A stretch of 64,000 nt of DNA from Candidatus Wolfebacteria bacterium. Lineage in GTDB: Bacteria > Patescibacteriota > Minisyncoccia > UBA6257 > UBA9933. This document shows positions 7,565 through 45,722 of this stretch, in pieces. The notes under the pieces are model-generated. The model made no database searches. It saw only the letters and a program-made list of their open reading frames with translations, and was not told where the DNA came from. The translations under genes were made by a program, and so were the position numbers. Each line of letters starts with the position of its first letter. The first letter of the stretch is position 1. The stretch is from positions 168,959 to 232,958 of the forward strand of contig JANLIR010000002.1 in the NCBI GenBank assembly GCA_024654025.1, given 5' to 3'.

Positions 7565-7649
7565 GTCCTCGTGGCGGAAATGGAATACGCGCAGCGCTTA
7601 GGACGCTGTCCCGCAAGGGTTGTGGGTTCGACTCCCACCGAGGACACCA
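7565..7649 (+). tRNA. tRNA-Leu(UAG), CCA encoded
   Basis: Acceptor GTCCTCG/CGAGGAC. Anticodon arm CAGCG CTTAGGA CGCTG. Long variable arm (CCC gcaa GGG). T arm GTGGG TTCGACT CCCAC. Ends ACCA. Confidence 0.9.
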
Positions 7650-7809: not shown

Positions 7810-7831
7810 GACTCCCACCGAGGACACAAAA
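7810..7831 (+). repeat. direct repeat of the tRNA-Leu 3' end (att-like)
   Basis: GACTCCCACCGAGGACAC at 7810-7827 is identical to 7630-7647 of the tRNA. It abuts the 3' end of the recombinase gene. Confidence 0.8.
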
Positions 7832-8800
7832 TTATCCCCTTCTTCTTCCGTGAAATGTTTTGTGTATTTCTTTGAGTTCTTTATTTGTTAAATGCGTGTA
7901 AATTTGGGTTGTGGAAATATTGCTATGGCCTAAAAGTTCTTGCACAGACCTTAAATCCGCTCCTCCGATTAATAAATCAGTGGCAAAGCTATGCCGGAGC
8001 AAATGCGGGTGGATTTTTTGCGGTATCCCCGCTTTTCGGCCGTAAAAATCTATCAAGCGCTGAATTGCGCGAGGAATAATTCTCCCGATAACTTTCGGAT
8101 TTGCTTGCCCTGAGCTCATCGAGTCTGAGACTCTCAGAGTCGAATGACTTGTCGAACGGGTTGCTTTAGTTAAGCTTACAAACAGCGCTTCTTCGGCATC
8201 GGTTCGTTTTCCTAAATAATTTTTTATAGCTTTCTTGGCGGATTCGGATAAAAACACCACTCTTATTTTCCCGCCCTTGCCCCGCACGGAAATTTCTCCC
8301 CTATTCAAATCAAAATACCGGCTCAAAGAACATAATTCTGAAACGCGAAGCCCGGTTGAAAACAAAACTTCCAAAATCGCTTTGTCGCGAAGTCCTTTTA
8401 AATCGTTTGTTTTGGGCGCTGCCATAAGCCGTTCCAAATCCGAGTATTCCATTATATTGATTTGCCGGTTTGGAATTCTAGGAAGCTCGATTTTTTCCGA
8501 AGCTAAAACCCTGTAGTCGTTTTTCGCCAAAAATTTCAAAAAGTTTCTAAGCGCTATTATGTAGTAGCTTTGGGTTGTGCGTTTAAAGTTTTCTCCATCT
8601 CTGGGATTATGAAGCCGCGCCAGATAGATCCGAAAATCTCTTACGTTGTCAGCGGTGATATCGCCCTCGGATTTTATTTTGGCGAAATCAAAAAACTTCG
8701 TTAAATAGTGCTCATAATTTTCCCGCGTGTCTTTAGTCCTGCCTTTTTCAATCTCAAGATAATCAAGATAGTTTTTGAGGAGTTTGTTTATGTCAGCCAT
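7832..8800 (-). CDS. tyrosine recombinase (XerC/XerD-like integrase)
   Basis: Catalytic-domain motifs LFSTGLRVSEL, HPHLLRHSFATDLL, LLGHSNISTTQIYTH. Start placed at MADINK (8800). Carries a roughly 25-aa internal insertion. Confidence 0.85.
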   Translation of the reverse strand: MADINKLLKNYLDYLEIEKGRTKDTRENYEHYLTKFFDFAKIKSEGDITADNVRDFRIYLARLHNPRDGENFKRTTQSYYIIALRNFLKFLAKNDYRVLASEKIELPRIPNRQINIMEYSDLERLMAAPKTNDLKGLRDKAILEVLFSTGLRVSELCSLSRYFDLNRGEISVRGKGGKIRVVFLSESAKKAIKNYLGKRTDAEEALFVSLTKATRSTSHSTLRVSDSMSSGQANPKVIGRIIPRAIQRLIDFYGRKAGIPQKIHPHLLRHSFATDLLIGGADLRSVQELLGHSNISTTQIYTHLTNKELKEIHKTFHGRRRG

Positions 8801-8806
8801 AGCTTC

Positions 8807-8841
8807 GCAACCTGTAACTTGTAACAATTAACTTATAACAA
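8807..8841. repeat. 5 x 7-nt degenerate heptad array
   Basis: GCAACCT GTAACTT GTAACAA TTAACTT ATAACAA. Confidence 0.65.
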
Positions 8842-13049: not shown

Positions 13050-13628
13050 ATGATTTACTCTCTCTCTGGAAAGCTCACCGTAAAAACCAAACTTTTTATC
13101 ATTATTGAAACAAGTGGAATCGGCTTTAAAGTTTTTGTTTCGCGGCGGACAATTAATAAGCTTCCGAAAATAAATTCGAAAGCGAAAATTTTTTGCCATA
13201 CTTACGTCAAACAAGACGGAATCGAGCTTTACGGATTTTACGATAAAACCGAAATGGACGTTTTTGAAATGTTAACTTCAATTAGCGGCGTTGGTCCGAA
13301 AATGGCTTTAAAAATTTTATCGGTCATAAAACCGGAAGAATTAATGTCGGCCGTAAATAAAAACCGCGCCGATCTTCTTACAAAAATTTCCGGAGTCGGC
13401 AAAAAAACAGCCGAGCGGATAATTTTGGAATTAAAAGACAAAATAGCCGTTAAAGAAAGCGAAGAAATTATTTCTATGCTGGAAATCGATATTGACATTT
13501 CCGAAGCGCTCAAAAGAATGGGTTATAGGCAAAACGAAGTGAAGGAAGCCGTAAAAGCTATTTCTTCAAAAAGCGAAAAACCGGAAGAAAGAATAAGGGA
13601 AGCATTGAAATTTTTAAATAAAAGATAG
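13050..13628 (+). CDS. ruvA: Holliday junction DNA helicase RuvA
   Basis: N-terminal OB fold, HhH motifs (LTSISGVGPKMALKIL, LTKISGVGKKTAERIILELK), C-terminal domain III. Confidence 0.9.
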   Translation: MIYSLSGKLTVKTKLFIIIETSGIGFKVFVSRRTINKLPKINSKAKIFCHTYVKQDGIELYGFYDKTEMDVFEMLTSISGVGPKMALKILSVIKPEELMSAVNKNRADLLTKISGVGKKTAERIILELKDKIAVKESEEIISMLEIDIDISEALKRMGYRQNEVKEAVKAISSKSEKPEERIREALKFLNKR

Positions 13629-13635
13629 TTAAATT

Positions 13636-13780
13636 TATTCCCAATCAAATATATTCCCGCTACCGTTCAACCGCCCAGCGAGCGATTTCACTGGCGCCGC
13701 TTCTTCGCTCGGTCGCCACAGGCGACCACCGTGCCCGCTCAGTCGCGGAGCCGCGCTGTGAATATATTTGTTTGAGAATA
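13636..13780. mobile_element. MITE-like element or structured RNA: GC-rich core between 21-nt imperfect terminal inverted repeats
   Basis: TATTCCCAATCAAATATATTC (13636-13656) pairs with GAATATATTTGTTTGAGAATA (13760-13780), 19/21. The core contains GGTCGCC aca GGCGACC. Confidence 0.5.
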
Positions 13781-13790
13781 TCAAATAAAA

Positions 13791-15152
13791 ATGAATTTAG
13801 AAAAAATTTTAAATTTAGGAAGGAAAGTTATTCCAAAGCCTGTTTTTGAATTTTTTCAGCCAGCCTACCATTGGATGCTGGCTTTTTTAGGCGCTTTTCT
13901 TTACGGCTCTCCGTCAAAAAATATGATAATTATCGGAGTTACGGGCACAAAAGGCAAAACTACCACTTGCGATCTTATTGCTCAAATTTTAAATTCGTTC
14001 GGCTATAAAACCGCGCTTGTTACCACTGCCTTGGTGCGCATAGGAGACGAGGAGTGGAAAAACGAGCATAAACAAACAATGCTTGGCCGGTTTAAGCTCC
14101 AGAAATTTTTAAGCCAAGCCGACGAGTTAAAATGCCGGTACGCTGTTGTGGAGACATCTTCAGAAGGTATTTTGCAATACAGGCACCGGTTTATAGATTA
14201 TGATGTGGCGGTTTTTACCAATCTATTCCCTGAACACATAGAACGCCACGGCGGTTTTGAAAATTATAGAAACGCTAAAGTAAAATTATTCGAAAAACTG
14301 GCAAAAAAAGACAACGGAATAGGAATTTATAATTTAGATGATTCGGATGTTAATTATTTTTTGGAGCCCGGAATAAAAACAAAAATAGGATATACAATAA
14401 ATAACCAACGACCAACAACTATTAATCAAGAACTCATGGAATCTTTGCAGAAAATTATCGAAGTTAAAAATATTGAACAGGGACTAGACGGATCGAAATT
14501 TTCAATTAATGGCGAGAGATTCAAAACTCCCCTGATAGGAGAATTTAATGTGTACAATGCGGTAGCCGCTATTACTGTTGCGATATCCCAAGGTGTTCCG
14601 CTTAATAAAATAAAACCTATTATTAGCAGAGCAAAACAAACTCCCGGCAGATTGGAAAAAGTAGAAAACGAAAAAGGATTCACGGTCATTATTGATTACG
14701 CGCATGAACCGTTTAGTTTGGAATCGGTTTACAAAGCAGCCGCAAGTTACAAAGCGAAACCTAAAAGTTCTATGTTGTGCCTTTTGGGAGCCCAAGGCGG
14801 CGGACGAGACAGATGGAAGAGGCCGAAAATGGGAAGTATCGCCGCTCAATATTGCGATAAGATAATTTTAACAAATGAAGATCCTTACGACGAAAATCCA
14901 AATCAAATTTTAGACGATATCGAGGAAGGCGTTCGAGCTGGATTTCGCAACAATCCAAAAAAATTCGCAACCGTAAATAAAATTATAGATAGAAAAGAAG
15001 CAATCCAAAAAGCTGTTTCTCTTGCGAAAAAAGGCGATGTTGTGGTTTTAACCGGTAAAGGCGGAGAAACATTTATGTGTATTGAGAATAATAAAAAAAA
15101 TCTCTGGGATGAAAAAACGGTTGTTGAAGAGGTATTGAATAGTTTCTCATAA
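13791..15152 (+). CDS. Mur ligase family protein (MurE-like)
   Basis: GVTGTKGKTTT P-loop, DYAHEPFSLESV, TNEDPYDENP. Confidence 0.75.
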   Translation: MNLEKILNLGRKVIPKPVFEFFQPAYHWMLAFLGAFLYGSPSKNMIIIGVTGTKGKTTTCDLIAQILNSFGYKTALVTTALVRIGDEEWKNEHKQTMLGRFKLQKFLSQADELKCRYAVVETSSEGILQYRHRFIDYDVAVFTNLFPEHIERHGGFENYRNAKVKLFEKLAKKDNGIGIYNLDDSDVNYFLEPGIKTKIGYTINNQRPTTINQELMESLQKIIEVKNIEQGLDGSKFSINGERFKTPLIGEFNVYNAVAAITVAISQGVPLNKIKPIISRAKQTPGRLEKVENEKGFTVIIDYAHEPFSLESVYKAAASYKAKPKSSMLCLLGAQGGGRDRWKRPKMGSIAAQYCDKIILTNEDPYDENPNQILDDIEEGVRAGFRNNPKKFATVNKIIDRKEAIQKAVSLAKKGDVVVLTGKGGETFMCIENNKKNLWDEKTVVEEVLNSFS

Positions 15153-31919: not shown

Positions 31920-31954
31920 GTTATAAGTTAATAGTTACAAGTTACTAGTTAATA
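31920..31954. repeat. 5 x 7-nt heptad array just upstream of rpmG
   Basis: GTTATAA GTTAATA GTTACAA GTTACTA GTTAATA. Confidence 0.75.
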
Positions 31955-32406: not shown

Positions 32407-32570
32407 TTTTGCGCTTACGCTAACACGATACTAATATACTAATTTTACTAATGATACGAATTGGATACGAATTCGTATTTATTAGTATCATTCGAATGCA
32501 TTCGTCCTTCGACTTACTCAGGACGACCCTGAGTCGGTCGAATGGGTCGTATATTGGTATCACAATCACA

Positions 32571-33815
32571 ATGAGGCGTTTCTATTTTGATTACGCTGCT
32601 ACTACTCCGATTGACCCAGAGGTTTTAAAAGAAATAAATTCTAATTTAAGGAATAATTTTGGCAATCCCGGATCGCTCAATTTTTTCGGGCAAGCCGCAA
32701 TGGCAATGGTTGATAAATCGCGCGAAAAAATCGCCAACGCAATCAACGCTGATTTTCGGGAAATAATTTTTACCGGATCCGCGACGGAGGCAAACAATCT
32801 CGCACTCAGAGGAATACTAAAAAACGCCCGCCTGCGCCAAGGCTTCGGCGGGCAGGTAAAAACTAAAAGCAAAAAACCGAGAATAATTGTTTCAGCTATT
32901 GAACACGAATCTATTTTAGAAACTGCTAGAGATTTATCCGCCAGAGGCGGATCCGCCTTTGGCGGAGAAAAAGAAGGCGTGGAAATTATTTATTTGCCGG
33001 TTGATAAAAACGGCGTTGTGGATTTAAAGAAGTTAGAGAACGCATTGAACGAAAGAACGATTTTGGTTTCAATAATGTACGCGAACAACGAAACCGGAGT
33101 CATACAACCAATAGCAGAAATCGCCGAAATTATAAAAAAATTCAAAGAAAAAAAATACCCTAAACCCTACACCCTAAACCCTACACCCTATTTTCACACC
33201 GACGCTGTCCAGGCGTTCCAATTTCTGGATTGCAATATTAAAAACTTAGGGGTAGATTTAATGACTTTATCGGCTCATAAAATTTACGGACCAAAAGGAA
33301 TTGGCGCGTTATACGTACGCAACTCACAACTCACAACCTACAACTTACAACCAATAATTACTGGAGGAAAACAAGAATTTGGATTAAGATCCGGCACTGA
33401 AAACGTTGCCATGATAGCTGGTTTCGCCAAAGCAATTGAATTGGCAAATGAGAAACGGGAAAAAGAGAAAAAAAGAATTTTTTTGCTGGCGCAATATTTT
33501 TTTAAAGAAATAAAAAAGATTGTTCCGAGCGCCCAACTAAACGCAGGGAAGGCCAAGCGGCTGCCTAATATTTTAAATATCGCTTTCTCGGGTTATGACG
33601 CGGAGAGTTTGCTGATAAAATTTGACCTTAACGGCACTGCTGTTTCCCGAGGCTCGGCGTGTATGGCGCGTTCGTCTCAGTCGTCTTATGTATTAAAAGA
33701 AATGGGACTAAGTGAAAGCGAGCAGCGCTCCAGTTTGCGGTTTAGCTTCGGCAGATTTACAACAAAAGAAGAAATGTCTAAAGCCTTGAAAATTATAAAA
33801 AAAACATTAAAATAG
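32571..33815 (+). CDS. cysteine desulfurase (IscS/NifS family)
   Basis: YFDYAATTP, FTGSATEANN, SAHKIYGPKGIGALYVR (PLP Lys), RSGTENV, SRGSACM (active Cys). Start placed at MRRFYF. Confidence 0.9.
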   Translation: MRRFYFDYAATTPIDPEVLKEINSNLRNNFGNPGSLNFFGQAAMAMVDKSREKIANAINADFREIIFTGSATEANNLALRGILKNARLRQGFGGQVKTKSKKPRIIVSAIEHESILETARDLSARGGSAFGGEKEGVEIIYLPVDKNGVVDLKKLENALNERTILVSIMYANNETGVIQPIAEIAEIIKKFKEKKYPKPYTLNPTPYFHTDAVQAFQFLDCNIKNLGVDLMTLSAHKIYGPKGIGALYVRNSQLTTYNLQPIITGGKQEFGLRSGTENVAMIAGFAKAIELANEKREKEKKRIFLLAQYFFKEIKKIVPSAQLNAGKAKRLPNILNIAFSGYDAESLLIKFDLNGTAVSRGSACMARSSQSSYVLKEMGLSESEQRSSLRFSFGRFTTKEEMSKALKIIKKTLK

Positions 33816-44099: not shown

Positions 44100-45722
44100 A
44101 TGATAAAAGAAAGAATCAAGAAAATTATCAAAGACGCTGTTGGAGAGGAAGCCGAGATTTTTGTACCGGAAAATGAAAAATTCGGACATTACTCGACTAA
44201 TGTTGCTTTGAGATTGGCAAAAGAAAAAAGCAAAAAACCGATGGCGATTGCGGAGGACATAAAAGATAAAATATTATCCTTCGATAAACTCAGGACCTTC
44301 GGTAAAATCGAAATTGCTTCGCCAGGATTTATCAATTTTTGGATTTCAGAAAAAACTTTACAAAACGAATTAAAAGAAATTTTAAAAAAGAAAAATTCTT
44401 ATGGTAAAGCGTCAAGTGTCAAGCGTAAAATGGGAAGCATTCAAGTAGAGTTTATTTCCGCCAATCCGACCGGACCTTTAACAATCGGAAACGGAAGAGG
44501 CGGGTTTTTTGGAGATGTTTTGGCGAATATTTTGAAATTTTCCGGAAATAAAATTATCAAAGAGTATTATGTTAACGACGCTAAAAACAGCACGCAAATA
44601 AGGGAATTGGGTAAAACCGGGCTTGGTCTGGGGGAAACTTATTTAACTCCCGGATTAAAAAAAATAATCAAAAAATTAAAGTCGAAGATTAGTAATGTAA
44701 TCCTTCGTTGCGCTCAGGATGCTCCGCAAAGCGTCGCAGGCGAAGTCGGCTATTTGTTGGCAGGCGAAATAAATAAACAAAACAAGAAATTTGTTGAGAA
44801 AGTTTTAAAAATCAAATTCGACAAATGGTTTTCCGAAGAATCTTTGTATAAAAGCGGAGCGGTAAAAAAACTTTTAAGCGATTTGAAGAAGAAAAATTTA
44901 GTTTATGAAAAAGAAGGCGCCTCGTGGTTTAAAGCAAAACAATTTGGCGACACCGAGGACCGCGTGCTTATAAGAAGTTCGGGCGAGCCGACTTATATTG
45001 TGCCTGACCTTGCTTATCACGCGGATAAATTTAAAAAAAGAAAATTTTCTAAAGCCATTGATGTTTGGGGAGCGGATCATCATGGCTATATTCCTCGGCT
45101 CAAAGCCGGATTAAAATCGCTTGGAATTTCCGAAGACCGGTTGAAGATTGTTATTGCTCAGATGGTTCGGCTTGTTAAAAATGGCCAGGAATACAAAATG
45201 TCCAAAAGAAAAGGAGATTACGTGACAATGGAGGATTTAATAAAAGAAGTTGGGCTCGACGCGGCAAGATTTTTCTTTTTAATGAGCGCGCCGGACACTC
45301 ATATGAATTTTGACCTTGATCTGGCAAAAGAGCGTTCAATGAAAAATCCAGTTTATTACGCGCAGTACGCGGCAGTTAGGGCGAACAGTATTCTGCAAAA
45401 AAATAAAAAACTTAAAAACTTAAAAACTAAAAGCAACCCAAATTTAAATTTATTAAGTACGAAAGAGGATGTAAATTTAATGAAAATACTGGCGAGATTT
45501 CCGGAAATTGTCGAAGAAGCGGCCCAAAATTACAACCCGCAAATTTTAGTCAGATATTCAATTGACCTGGCAAGGCAATTTCACAATTTTTACGAGAAAG
45601 AACATGTCATAGGCGAGCGGGCGGATTTGATGTCGGCGCGATTAGAACTTATAAAAGCCACCAAAATAATTTTTGAAATTTTGTTCAAGCTTTTGGGGAT
45701 TAGCTATTCAAGAAAGATGTAA
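44100..45722 (+). CDS. argS: arginine--tRNA ligase
   Basis: Class I signatures ISANPTGPLTIGNGRGG (HIGH-like) and KMSKRKG. C-terminal anticodon-binding domain. Confidence 0.93.
   Translation: MIKERIKKIIKDAVGEEAEIFVPENEKFGHYSTNVALRLAKEKSKKPMAIAEDIKDKILSFDKLRTFGKIEIASPGFINFWISEKTLQNELKEILKKKNSYGKASSVKRKMGSIQVEFISANPTGPLTIGNGRGGFFGDVLANILKFSGNKIIKEYYVNDAKNSTQIRELGKTGLGLGETYLTPGLKKIIKKLKSKISNVILRCAQDAPQSVAGEVGYLLAGEINKQNKKFVEKVLKIKFDKWFSEESLYKSGAVKKLLSDLKKKNLVYEKEGASWFKAKQFGDTEDRVLIRSSGEPTYIVPDLAYHADKFKKRKFSKAIDVWGADHHGYIPRLKAGLKSLGISEDRLKIVIAQMVRLVKNGQEYKMSKRKGDYVTMEDLIKEVGLDAARFFFLMSAPDTHMNFDLDLAKERSMKNPVYYAQYAAVRANSILQKNKKLKNLKTKSNPNLNLLSTKEDVNLMKILARFPEIVEEAAQNYNPQILVRYSIDLARQFHNFYEKEHVIGERADLMSARLELIKATKIIFEILFKLLGISYSRKM
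44404..44438 (+). repeat. 5 x 7-nt heptad array inside argS
   Basis: GTAAAGC GTCAAGT GTCAAGC GTAAAAT GGGAAGC. Encodes GKASSVKRKMGS. Confidence 0.65.

What the first reader, a model, noticed from the sequence alone, without database searches (positions are those of the whole stretch)
8100..8170. Roughly 25-aa in-frame insertion with palindromic repeats inside the Xer-like recombinase
Between the conserved LF(V/P)S and the ...AGI..K..PH.LRH segments this protein carries TKATRSTSHSTLRVSDSMSSGQANPKVIGR. That is about 25 residues more than E. coli XerD, aligned from memory.

The DNA here is CCCTGAGCTCATCGAGTCTGAGACTCTCAGAGTCGAATGACTTGTCGAACGGG. It contains TCTGAGA/TCTCAGA inverted repeats. It shares CCCTGAG...GTCGAATG with the cysteine-desulfurase leader element at 32505-32548 (CTCAGGACGACCCTGAGTCGGTCGAATGGGTCG).

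This is a second family of short repeats that appears able to sit in frame inside a gene.
Basis: partly seen in the sequence, partly recalled or inferred. Interest (0 to 1): 0.55.

Follow-up and report, generated by a model that had tools for sequence, protein, structure and literature searches.

The report
Tiny mobile repeat inside recombinase gene
A 60-base piece of repeated DNA sits in frame in a floppy loop of this bacterium's Xer recombinase; it is built on a 24-base unit that also occurs in unrelated essential genes, in viral contigs and in a distant phylum, which shows that ultra-small repeats can lengthen essential proteins without breaking them.

Summary
The Xer-like tyrosine recombinase (7832-8800, minus strand; Candidatus Wolfebacteria) carries a 60-nt, 20-codon in-frame insert at 8102-8161 (TRSTSHSTLRVSDSMSSGQA). 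Its closest orthologue lacks it.

The conserved unit is not the palindrome. It is a 24-nt unit, CCC(G)TTCGACAAG|CTCAGGGCAAGC, read as (P/R)STSSGQA. Here 33 extra bases split it, and those bases create the TCTGAGA/TCTCAGA quasi-palindrome.

Among 120 orthologues the same loop is a hotspot: 76 are empty and 44 are filled, by several different short GC-rich repeat families.

The unsplit unit also sits in frame in DnaK and in ribosomal proteins L7/L12 and L10 of related genomes. The exact 21-mer core occurs in at least 120 metagenome contigs (GC 0.32-0.69) and in 12 viral contigs. Conservation stops sharply at the unit's edges. Host genes there include GyrA, IleRS, CysRS, MnmE, PGK and FtsK.

The hairpin at 32506-44 is an inverted dimer of a variant of the same motif.

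Best reading: a selfish, very small dispersed repeat tolerated in a disordered loop. How it spreads is unknown. It resembles Rickettsia RPEs and cyanobacterial SDRs, but I found no description of this family.

The parts
7832..8800 (-). Host gene: a chromosomal Xer-like tyrosine recombinase of 322 aa, counted from the ATG at 8800 (the mechanical ORF runs from a TTG at 8827).
   Evidence: Pfam PF00589 scores 138.7 bits and PF02899 scores 44.8 bits. The best PDB matches are XerA 4a8e and XerD 1a0p. The catalytic R152, K175, H266, R269, H292 and Y301 are invariant in 37 orthologues. The neighbourhood PNPase-NYN-S15-xer is conserved. The protein is 100% identical to an NCBI Candidatus Wolfebacteria MAG protein.
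8102..8161 (-). The in-frame insert: 60 nt, 20 codons, T213-A232, TRSTSHSTLRVSDSMSSGQA.
   Evidence: It is absent from the sister orthologue L001/P0003, which reads ACC AAA GCA | AAG AAC CCG there. A short 27-nt form is present in L003. In the AF2 model residues 202-240 have pLDDT below 50 and no secondary structure.
8148..8160 (-). 5' half of the 24-nt unit on the coding strand: CCCGTTCGACAAG.
   Evidence: Read directly from the sequence. It is identical to the 5' half of the unsplit copy in L023 xer. The 20-mer AAAGCAACCCGTTCGACAAG also occurs at the end of the L10 gene in L052.
8115..8147 (-). The 33 nt that interrupt the unit (coding strand TCATTCGACTCTGAGAGTCTCAGACTCGATGAG). They hold the quasi-palindrome at 8119-8143.
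   Evidence: Self-match of 22/25 and a predicted hairpin. No other copy in about 2.5 Mb of collected DNA. Long forms with the same architecture (unit plus an internal TTCGAC..GAG/CTCAG..CGAA hairpin) occur in L004 and L005 xer and in a D-lactate dehydrogenase gene of L019.
8103..8114 (-). 3' half of the 24-nt unit on the coding strand: CTCAGGGCAAGC.
   Evidence: Joined to the 5' half it gives TTCGACAAGCTCAGGGCAAGC, which is exactly the 21-mer found in at least 120 metagenome contigs and 12 viral contigs.
32506..32544 (+). Intergenic hairpin upstream of the cysteine desulfurase gene. It is an inverted dimer of the GGAC/GGGT variant of the same motif: CCTTCGACttaCTCAGGAC ga CCCTGAGtcgGTCGAATGG.
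   Evidence: Both arms match TTCGACNNNCTCAGG with no mismatch. The RNA fold is -26.5 kcal/mol with z = -3.2. No Rfam family matches it.

Best explanation
The segment is a copy of a very small dispersed GC-rich repeat. The unit is 24 nt, CCC(G)TTCGACAAGCTCAGGGCAAGC, and it landed in frame and in the sense orientation in a permissive, disordered loop of the catalytic domain of the housekeeping Xer recombinase. In this lineage the copy was later enlarged to 60 nt. The extra 33 nt sit between TTCGACAAG and CTCAGGG. They reuse the unit's own TTCGAC and CTCAG modules, and that reuse is what produces the quasi-palindrome.

The insert is translated as a Ser/Thr/Gly/Gln-rich floppy loop. It contributes nothing the enzyme needs and persists because it is harmless there.

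Shown here:
- The insert is real and recently polymorphic among orthologues.
- The site is a hotspot that several repeat families have used.
- The same unit sits in frame in other essential genes.
- The unit occurs across at least two named phyla and in viral contigs, with sharply defined ends.

Inferred, not shown:
- The unit is mobile or copied by a trans-acting machinery. I favour a copy-in process acting on single-stranded or hairpin DNA over a classical cut-and-paste transposase, because the unit has no terminal inverted repeats and at most weak target duplication.
- The dominance of the STSSGQ reading frame reflects selection for a tolerable peptide.
- The 33-nt core arose by partial internal re-duplication or by a nested hairpin insertion.
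For: Insert and polarity:
- The closest orthologue is empty, the next has only a 27-nt form, and the window has 60 nt.
- Filled and empty alleles are interleaved throughout the tree.

Hotspot:
- 44 of 120 orthologues carry an insert between 'TKA' and 'K.PK'. The inserts come from different families: PST[SRG]SGQA, RLRQGFGGQA, the GGSASGG double hairpin, a perfect 20-nt palindrome, and 7-mer tandem repeats.

Same unit elsewhere:
- TTCGACNNNCTCAGG (up to 1 mismatch) occurs 11 times in 900 kb of Patescibacteria DNA, against about 1.3 in shuffles.
- It sits in frame in DnaK (L023), in the L7/L12 hinge and in the L10 C-terminus (L052).
- The long form sits in a D-lactate dehydrogenase as a 15-aa insert relative to 5z21.

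Breadth:
- Hosts named by their sources include a Flavobacteriaceae MAG and Paceibacterota.

Sharp ends:
- Information content is 1.1-1.75 bits at positions -3 to -1 and about 0.1 bits beyond, on both sides.

Recency:
- Window and L023 xer differ at 33% of flanking sites and 62% of third codon positions, yet the 21-nt core is identical.

Tolerated peptide:
- 40 of 46 genic copies are in the sense orientation and 30 of 46 read STSSGQ.
- They lie in GyrA, IleRS, CysRS, MnmE, PGK and FtsK.

Disordered loop with an intact enzyme:
- pLDDT is below 50 for residues 202-240.
- The fold matches XerA and XerD.
- The catalytic residues are invariant.
Against: - No mobilising enzyme was identified and no insertion event was observed. 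Mobility is inferred from distribution alone.
- Copy density is low, about 1 per 100 kb in Patescibacteria loci.
- The window, L003 and L004 share the same junctions although their flanks differ by up to 31%. That pattern could come from allele exchange by recombination, or from selection on the DNA sequence, rather than from repeated insertion.
- The inner 33 nt has no second copy anywhere, so its origin is unresolved.
- The AF2 model is only moderate, with mean pLDDT 69.
- Perfect conservation of a 21-mer across phyla could also mean the sequence has a function.
Confidence: 0.75

Rival explanations
1. The unit is a functional DNA or RNA motif, for example a site bound by a conserved protein, a DNA-uptake-type signal or a recombination signal. 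Selection maintains it, and coding regions merely accommodate it.
For: A 21-mer is perfectly conserved between contigs of GC 0.32-0.69. Within xer the core is far more conserved than neighbouring third codon positions. Hairpin-dimer forms sit at gene ends or starts (32506-32544; L052 L10 3' end). This resembles the way uptake sequences pair up as terminators; that comparison is from my own knowledge.
Against: Density is about 1 per 100 kb, far below known uptake sequences. Uptake signals are lineage-specific, whereas this unit spans phyla and viral contigs. Close orthologues do without it at every site examined. No Rfam family matches.
Confidence: 0.1
2. The insert is a purely local product of slippage and hairpin-driven duplication in an A-rich, repeat-prone stretch (AAAGCAAAGAA), with no mobile element involved.
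For: Some orthologues do show local tandem 7-mers at this site: L052 has AGCTCAA three times and L025 has GCAAGCG-like repeats. Partial internal duplications of the unit are common (L073, L128, L152, L169, L171, L190). The inner 33 nt is unique to this genome.
Against: Slippage cannot generate the same 21-24-mer in DnaK, L7/L12, GyrA, aminoacyl-tRNA synthetases and viral contigs. It also cannot produce the same 30-nt double hairpin both in the window's cysteine desulfurase and in another genome's xer hotspot. Slippage can explain only the secondary enlargement.
Confidence: 0.07
3. The loop is an adaptive extension of the recombinase, for example a new protein contact, or an mRNA hairpin that regulates xer expression.
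For: The insert stays in frame and free of stop codons. Long forms persist in at least four lineages (window, L004, L005, P0010).
Against: It is absent from the sister orthologue and from most others. Length and sequence are highly variable, and different repeat families occupy the same site. The loop is predicted to be disordered. The hairpin energy is not exceptional (z of about -1.2 to -1.55) and there is no terminator-like site.
Confidence: 0.06
4. The insert is an assembly or sequencing artefact, such as an adapter or a chimeric join.
For: The unit is short with sharp boundaries, and it appears in many unrelated assemblies.
Against: It is found in assemblies from JGI, ENA, NCBI and Logan. 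Copies diverge in step with phylogeny, e.g. P0045-47 and P0030/36/53. Genic copies show a strong bias in reading frame and orientation. An artefact would produce none of these patterns.
Confidence: 0.02

Closest known systems
Rickettsia palindromic elements (RPE; Ogata et al. 2000, as summarised in PMC10969869 and PMC3184786)
   Same: Both are selfish repeats inserted in frame into unrelated housekeeping genes. Both are translated as extra peptide segments that the fold tolerates. Both also occur in intergenic DNA, and no transposase is known for either.
   Different: RPEs are about 105-150 bp, palindromic and confined to Rickettsia. This unit is 24 nt (60 nt here), the monomer is not palindromic, and it occurs in Patescibacteria, Bacteroidota, high-GC contigs and viral contigs.
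Cyanobacterial small dispersed repeats (SDR; Elhai et al. 2008, Genome Res 18:1484; cited in PMC3116915 and PMC2884548; the paper itself is not held, so details are from my own knowledge)
   Same: Unit size is 21-27 nt. Copies are dispersed, sometimes tandem or nested, and are inserted into otherwise conserved sequence and into hairpin contexts. There are no obvious transposon ends and the mobilising machinery is unknown.
   Different: SDRs were described only in Nostoc and Anabaena relatives. I could not test sequence relatedness to SDR1-8. The in-frame colonisation of essential genes across phyla seen here is not something I know to have been reported for SDRs.
REP / REPIN elements mobilised by RAYT (Y1/HUH) transposases (PMC3116915, PMC3733652)
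   Same: Both are short GC-rich repeats. Hairpin and inverted-dimer forms exist, such as 32506-32544. Both are found at gene ends.
   Different: REPs are extragenic, palindromic as monomers and carry a GTAG or CGTC head. The 24-mer starts with CCCTTCGA, is not a palindrome, and roughly one third of copies lie inside clear long reading frames. I did not look for a RAYT gene.
Bacterial MITEs (Correia/NEMIS, Nezha, ERIC, RUP; PMC3184786)
   Same: They are non-autonomous, are detected as filled versus empty sites between relatives, and occasionally form in-frame fusions with host reading frames.
   Different: MITEs are about 100-400 bp with terminal inverted repeats and clear target-site duplications. 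Here there are no terminal inverted repeats, and flanking direct repeats of 5 nt or more occur in only 11 of 115 copies against about 4 expected.

Membership tests
Tyrosine recombinase, Xer type (host gene) | A Phage_integrase catalytic domain together with an N-terminal SAM-like core-binding domain | tested here: met
   PF00589 scores 138.7 bits (cut-off 27.1) and PF02899 scores 44.8 bits (cut-off 22.3). Foldseek top hits are XerA 5hxy and 4a8e, with XerD 1a0p also matched.
Tyrosine recombinase, Xer type (host gene) | The catalytic R-K-H-R-H-Y residues | tested here: met
   R152, K175, H266, R269, H292 and Y301 are invariant in 37 orthologues. They align with the XerD motifs GLRVSEL, GKGNK, PHVLRH and LGHS..TQIYTH.
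Tyrosine recombinase, Xer type (host gene) | Acts at a chromosomal dif site with FtsK | not testable with these tools
   Only conserved chromosomal synteny (PNPase-NYN-S15-xer) was seen. I did not search for a dif site.
Rickettsia palindromic elements (RPE) | In-frame insertion into unrelated housekeeping genes | tested here: met
   Found in Xer, DnaK, L7/L12, L10, GyrA, IleRS, CysRS, MnmE, PGK and D-LDH.
Rickettsia palindromic elements (RPE) | Length of about 105-150 bp with a palindromic unit, restricted to Rickettsia | tested here: not met
   The unit is 24 nt with sharp ends. The monomer is not a palindrome. Hosts are Patescibacteria, Flavobacteriaceae and others.
Small dispersed repeats (SDR, cyanobacteria) | A 21-27-nt unit, dispersed, also tandem or nested, inserted in conserved sequence | tested here: met
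   The unit is 24 nt. Tandem and partial copies occur in L073, L128, L169 and L171. Nested or long forms exist. Filled and empty orthologous sites are both seen.
Small dispersed repeats (SDR, cyanobacteria) | Sequence identity to SDR1-8, and a cyanobacterial host | not testable with these tools
   The Elhai 2008 paper is not held. None of the hosts identified here was cyanobacterial.
REP / REPIN | Extragenic, palindromic monomer with a GTAG or CGTC head | tested here: not met
   The unit begins with CCCTTCGAC. 46 of 131 copies lie in clear long reading frames. The monomer has no dyad symmetry, as read directly from the sequence.
REP / REPIN | An associated RAYT (Y1 transposase) gene in the genome | not tested
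   Only 64 kb of this genome is available, and I did not screen its reading frames for PF01797.
MITE | Terminal inverted repeats and a fixed-length target-site duplication | tested here: not met
   The unit has no terminal inverted repeats. Flanking direct repeats of 5 nt or more occur in 11 of 115 copies against about 3.8 expected, with no fixed length.

The most novel reading that the evidence does not exclude
CCCTTCGACAAGCTCAGGGCAAGC and its relatives (the RLRQGFGGQA-type and GGSAxGG-type hairpins seen at the same xer hotspot) would form an undescribed class of 'nano' mobile DNA. The unit is 24 nt, has no transposon ends, is shared between phyla and viral contigs, and is copied by an unknown trans-acting machinery into single-stranded or hairpin DNA. 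It would be a general source of 8-20-residue loop insertions in essential proteins of uncultivated bacteria. On this reading the xer loop is a recurrent landing site, not a single inherited event.
Probability: 0.35. Interest if true: 0.85.

Novelty: new variant of a known kind. Interest (0 to 1): 0.64.

Why it matters
- Small GC-rich repeats would be a routine source of length variation in core proteins of Candidate Phyla Radiation bacteria and many other uncultivated bacteria. That matters for protein alignments and phylogenies, for domain and gene calling, and for interpreting 'lineage-specific insertions'.
- A 24-nt unit conserved to the base across phyla and viral contigs, with no transposon features, raises a concrete question that can be tested: what copies it?
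- Because filled and empty sites exist between close relatives at a defined hotspot, the xer loop is a convenient marker locus for catching insertion or loss in population data.

Tried and rejected
- In-window BLAST of 8090-8180 found no second copy beyond 7-10-mers. The link to 32505 therefore had to be established through orthologues.
- Generic repeat finding over the whole window did not pick the element up.
- Rfam at permissive thresholds found nothing at 8100-8170 or at 32506-32544.
- The terminator and promoter scan found nothing inside the insert.
- The hairpin energies of the xer insert are not significant.
- ArgRS 44278-44296 (SFDKLRT) and the GC-rich island at 44700-44750 show no clear length difference against PDB ArgRS, so I do not count them as insertions.
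- Full-text searches for the peptides (PSTSSGQA, FDKLRAN, LRQAQDE and others) and for the DNA strings returned no papers. A search for CPR plus in-frame palindromic insertions also returned none.
- The Elhai 2008 SDR paper could not be read.
- The search for target-site duplications gave only weak enrichment.
- P0128, a 396-aa member of the PQQ-dehydrogenase cluster, is an N-terminal truncation and not an empty site.
- My attempt to read the DNA of the second xer hotspot (PPGGGQG) failed, because L027 does not carry it.
- Intein, intron and programmed bypass were considered and rejected. The segment is only 60 nt, is in frame, has no stop codon, shows no splice-type motifs, and all orthologous inserts are multiples of three.

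Full report
**What is at the coordinates**

The window comes from a low-GC (39.8%) Candidatus Wolfebacteria (Patescibacteria/CPR) genome. The protein encoded at 7832-8800 on the minus strand is 100% identical to an NCBI MAG protein of that name.

It is a tyrosine recombinase with both Xer-type domains (PF00589 at 138.7 bits, PF02899 at 44.8 bits). Its best solved relatives are XerA 4a8e and XerD 1a0p. The gene sits in a conserved chromosomal neighbourhood, PNPase-NYN-S15-xer.

HMMER splits the match to XerA and XerD into two pieces around residues 213-239. That leaves about 23 extra residues against XerA and about 20 against XerD.

**Orthologues define the insert**

In an alignment of 37 close orthologues, most read LFVSLTKA-KNPKVIGRI with nothing in between. 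The sister sequence P0003 is 94% identical over aligned columns and is empty there.

At the DNA level:
- L001 is empty: ACC AAA GCA | AAG AAC CCG.
- L003 carries 27 nt: ACC CGT TCG ACA AAC TCA GGG CAG GCA.
- The window carries 60 nt at 8102-8161.

Among the 120 best orthologues, 76 are empty and 44 are filled, most often by +8 residues. A neighbour-joining tree built with the hotspot masked shows filled and empty alleles interleaved at every depth. Each of the window, P0002, P0010 and P0011 has an empty sister.

**The conserved unit is a 24-mer, not the palindrome**

The recurrent insert reads (P/R/H)ST(S/R/G)SGQA. L023 has the clean form GCC CGT TCG ACA AGC TCA GGG CAA GCA.

The window's insert breaks down as CCCGTTCGACAAG (8148-8160), then 33 nt (8115-8147), then CTCAGGGCAAGC (8103-8114). 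Joining the two outer pieces reproduces TTCGACAAGCTCAGGGCAAGC exactly.

The 33-nt core (TCATTCGACTCTGAGAGTCTCAGACTCGATGAG) holds the TCTGAGA/TCTCAGA repeat. It is a 22/25 quasi-palindrome, and its folding energy is unremarkable (z of -1.2 to -1.55). It reuses the unit's own TTCGAC and CTCAG modules. Because TCGA and CT[C/G]AG are themselves (nearly) self-complementary, partial re-duplications of the unit look palindromic. That last point is my inference.

I found no other copy of this 33-mer. The same architecture, a unit with an internal TTCGAC..GAG/CTCAG..CGAA hairpin, does recur:
- in xer of L004 and L005;
- in frame in a D-lactate dehydrogenase of another genome (L019), where it adds 15 residues relative to 5z21.

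**Relation to 32505-32548**

However, 32506-32544 is CCTTCGACttaCTCAGGAC-ga-CCCTGAGtcgGTCGAATGG. This is an inverted dimer of a variant of the same motif. Both arms match TTCGACNNNCTCAGG perfectly, and the hairpin is strong (-26.5 kcal/mol, z = -3.2). A similar full hairpin closes the L10 gene in L052.

**Other copies**

In 900 kb of Patescibacteria DNA (orthologous loci plus the window) the motif occurs 11 times, against about 1.3 in shuffles. The copies outside xer are in frame and in the same reading frame:
- DnaK in L023: KMGD-PSTSSGQA-KFYSPEEIS.
- The L7/L12 hinge in L052.
- The L10 C-terminus in L052.

**Breadth beyond this lineage**

Contig GC ranged from 0.32 to 0.69. It also occurs in 12 IMG/VR viral contigs.

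Conservation stops abruptly. Information content is 1.1-1.75 bits at the three C's before the core and about 0.1 bits beyond, on both sides. So the unit is 24 nt.

Flanks:
- 15 of 115 copies have flanking inverted repeats of 6 bp or more, against 2.1 expected. These copies sit in the loop of an unrelated stem.
- Direct repeats are only weakly enriched.

Reading frames:
- 46 of 131 copies lie in a clear long reading frame.
- 40 of those are in the sense orientation and 30 read STSSGQ.
- Host genes include GyrA, IleRS (two copies), CysRS, MnmE, PGK, the FtsK linker and HsdS.

Two hosts are named by their sources: a Flavobacteriaceae MAG and Candidatus Paceibacterota.

**Age of the copies**

Window and L023 xer differ at 33% of 354 flanking positions and at 62% of third codon positions, yet their 21-nt cores are identical. 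An old, unconstrained, vertically inherited insert would not look like this. The copies are therefore either recent and independent, or homogenised, or constrained at the DNA level.

The window and L003 (9% flank divergence, 2 of 21 core differences, identical junctions) plausibly share one insertion. In that case the 33 nt was gained in the window's lineage or lost in L003's.

**Why this site**

Different repeat families have landed in the same loop in different genomes. These include RLRQGFGGQA-type hairpins, a TCCGCCnnnGGCGGA double hairpin, and a perfect 20-nt palindrome.

The same families also sit in frame in the window's own cysteine desulfurase. That protein shows three inserts relative to human NFS1.

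The AF2 model gives pLDDT below 50 and no secondary structure for residues 202-240, between helices 186-198 and 243-256. The rest of the model matches XerA and XerD, and all catalytic residues are invariant. The simplest reading is a structurally permissive loop. Microhomology may contribute: AAAGCAA in the target resembles AAAGCAACCC... and ...GCAAGCAAA at the element's ends. That is an inference.

**Mechanism**

How the unit spreads is not shown. The features argue against a MITE or REP-type element: an exact short unit, no terminal inverted repeats, weak or absent target duplication, tandem and partial copies, and occurrence in hairpin loops. They point to a copy-in process on single-stranded or hairpin DNA. 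This is inference only.

The main rival, at about 0.1, is that the 24-mer is a selected functional motif. Pure local slippage, an adaptive loop and an artefact are each unlikely, for the reasons given under the rivals.

**Comparison with known systems**

The phenomenon works like Rickettsia RPEs, which are in-frame selfish repeats in housekeeping genes (PMC10969869, PMC3184786). In size and behaviour it is closest to the cyanobacterial small dispersed repeats of Elhai et al. 2008, which are cited in PMC3116915. I could not read that paper.

It fails the defining features of RPE (size, palindromy, host), REP/REPIN (extragenic, GTAG/CGTC head) and MITE (inverted repeats, target duplication).

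Full-text searches for the unit's DNA and peptide strings found nothing.

**Verdict**

The object is a new variant of a known kind. It is of more than routine interest because of the element's extreme smallness, its cross-phylum identity, and its presence in essential genes.

Noticed in passing
window 7811-7828 and 7565-7649: The 3' end of tRNA-Leu(tag), GACTCCCACCGAGGACAC, is repeated right after the xer stop codon, about 180 nt from the tRNA gene. In L003 the tRNA abuts xer directly. In L001 and L005 a 130-aa reading frame lies between them. This looks like variable small cargo integrated at the tRNA 3' end, with an att-like duplication.
   Followed up: partly
window 32820-32870, 32934-32984, 33144-33197: The cysteine desulfurase (32571-33815) has three in-frame inserts relative to human NFS1: NARLRQGFGGQV (a GC hairpin); RGGSAFGGEK (the double hairpin TCCGCCagaGGCGGATCCGCCtttGGCGGA, nearly the same 30-mer as the xer-hotspot insert of L027); and KYPKPYTLNPTP (CCCTAAACCCTACA twice).
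   Followed up: partly
window 13663-13765: A roughly 100-nt island of up to 81% GC lies in the intergenic space between ruvA (13050-13628) and a Mur-ligase-like gene (13791-15152), in a 40% GC genome.
   Followed up: no
window 44278-44296 and 44700-44750: ArgRS contains CCTTCGATAAACTCAGGAC, read as SFDKLRT (the unit's other reading frame). It also contains a GC-rich stretch read as LRCAQDAPQSVAGEVG. Neither shows a clear length difference against solved ArgRS structures.
   Followed up: partly
window 8809-8839 and 31920-31950: AT-rich 31-nt inverted copies (AACCTGTAACTTGTAACAATTAACTTATAAC), 90% complementary, lie just upstream of xer and upstream of a small reading frame near the tRNA cluster. 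This is a different, AT-rich repeat family.
   Followed up: no
Alignment A1 columns 76-90 (P0020, P0058, P0064): There is a second insertion point in the N-terminal domain of some xer orthologues: PPGGGQG or VPSGGGQG, 7-8 residues. The peptide again ends in G-Q-G.
   Followed up: no
L101 (metagenome contig Ga0209541_10028459): A GyrA gene carries both an intein-like insertion of about 400 residues and, separately, the exact 24-mer (KED-PSTSSGQA-GKTRIVITEIPYQ).
   Followed up: no
L073, L169, L171, L190, L128, L152: The unit forms tandem arrays with a 24-nt period, and also partial tandem copies of either half, in high-GC contigs.
   Followed up: partly
L193-L204 (IMG/VR viral contigs): Twelve viral contigs carry the exact 21-mer. 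L197 and L198 carry 4-5 copies or variants within a few kb.
   Followed up: no
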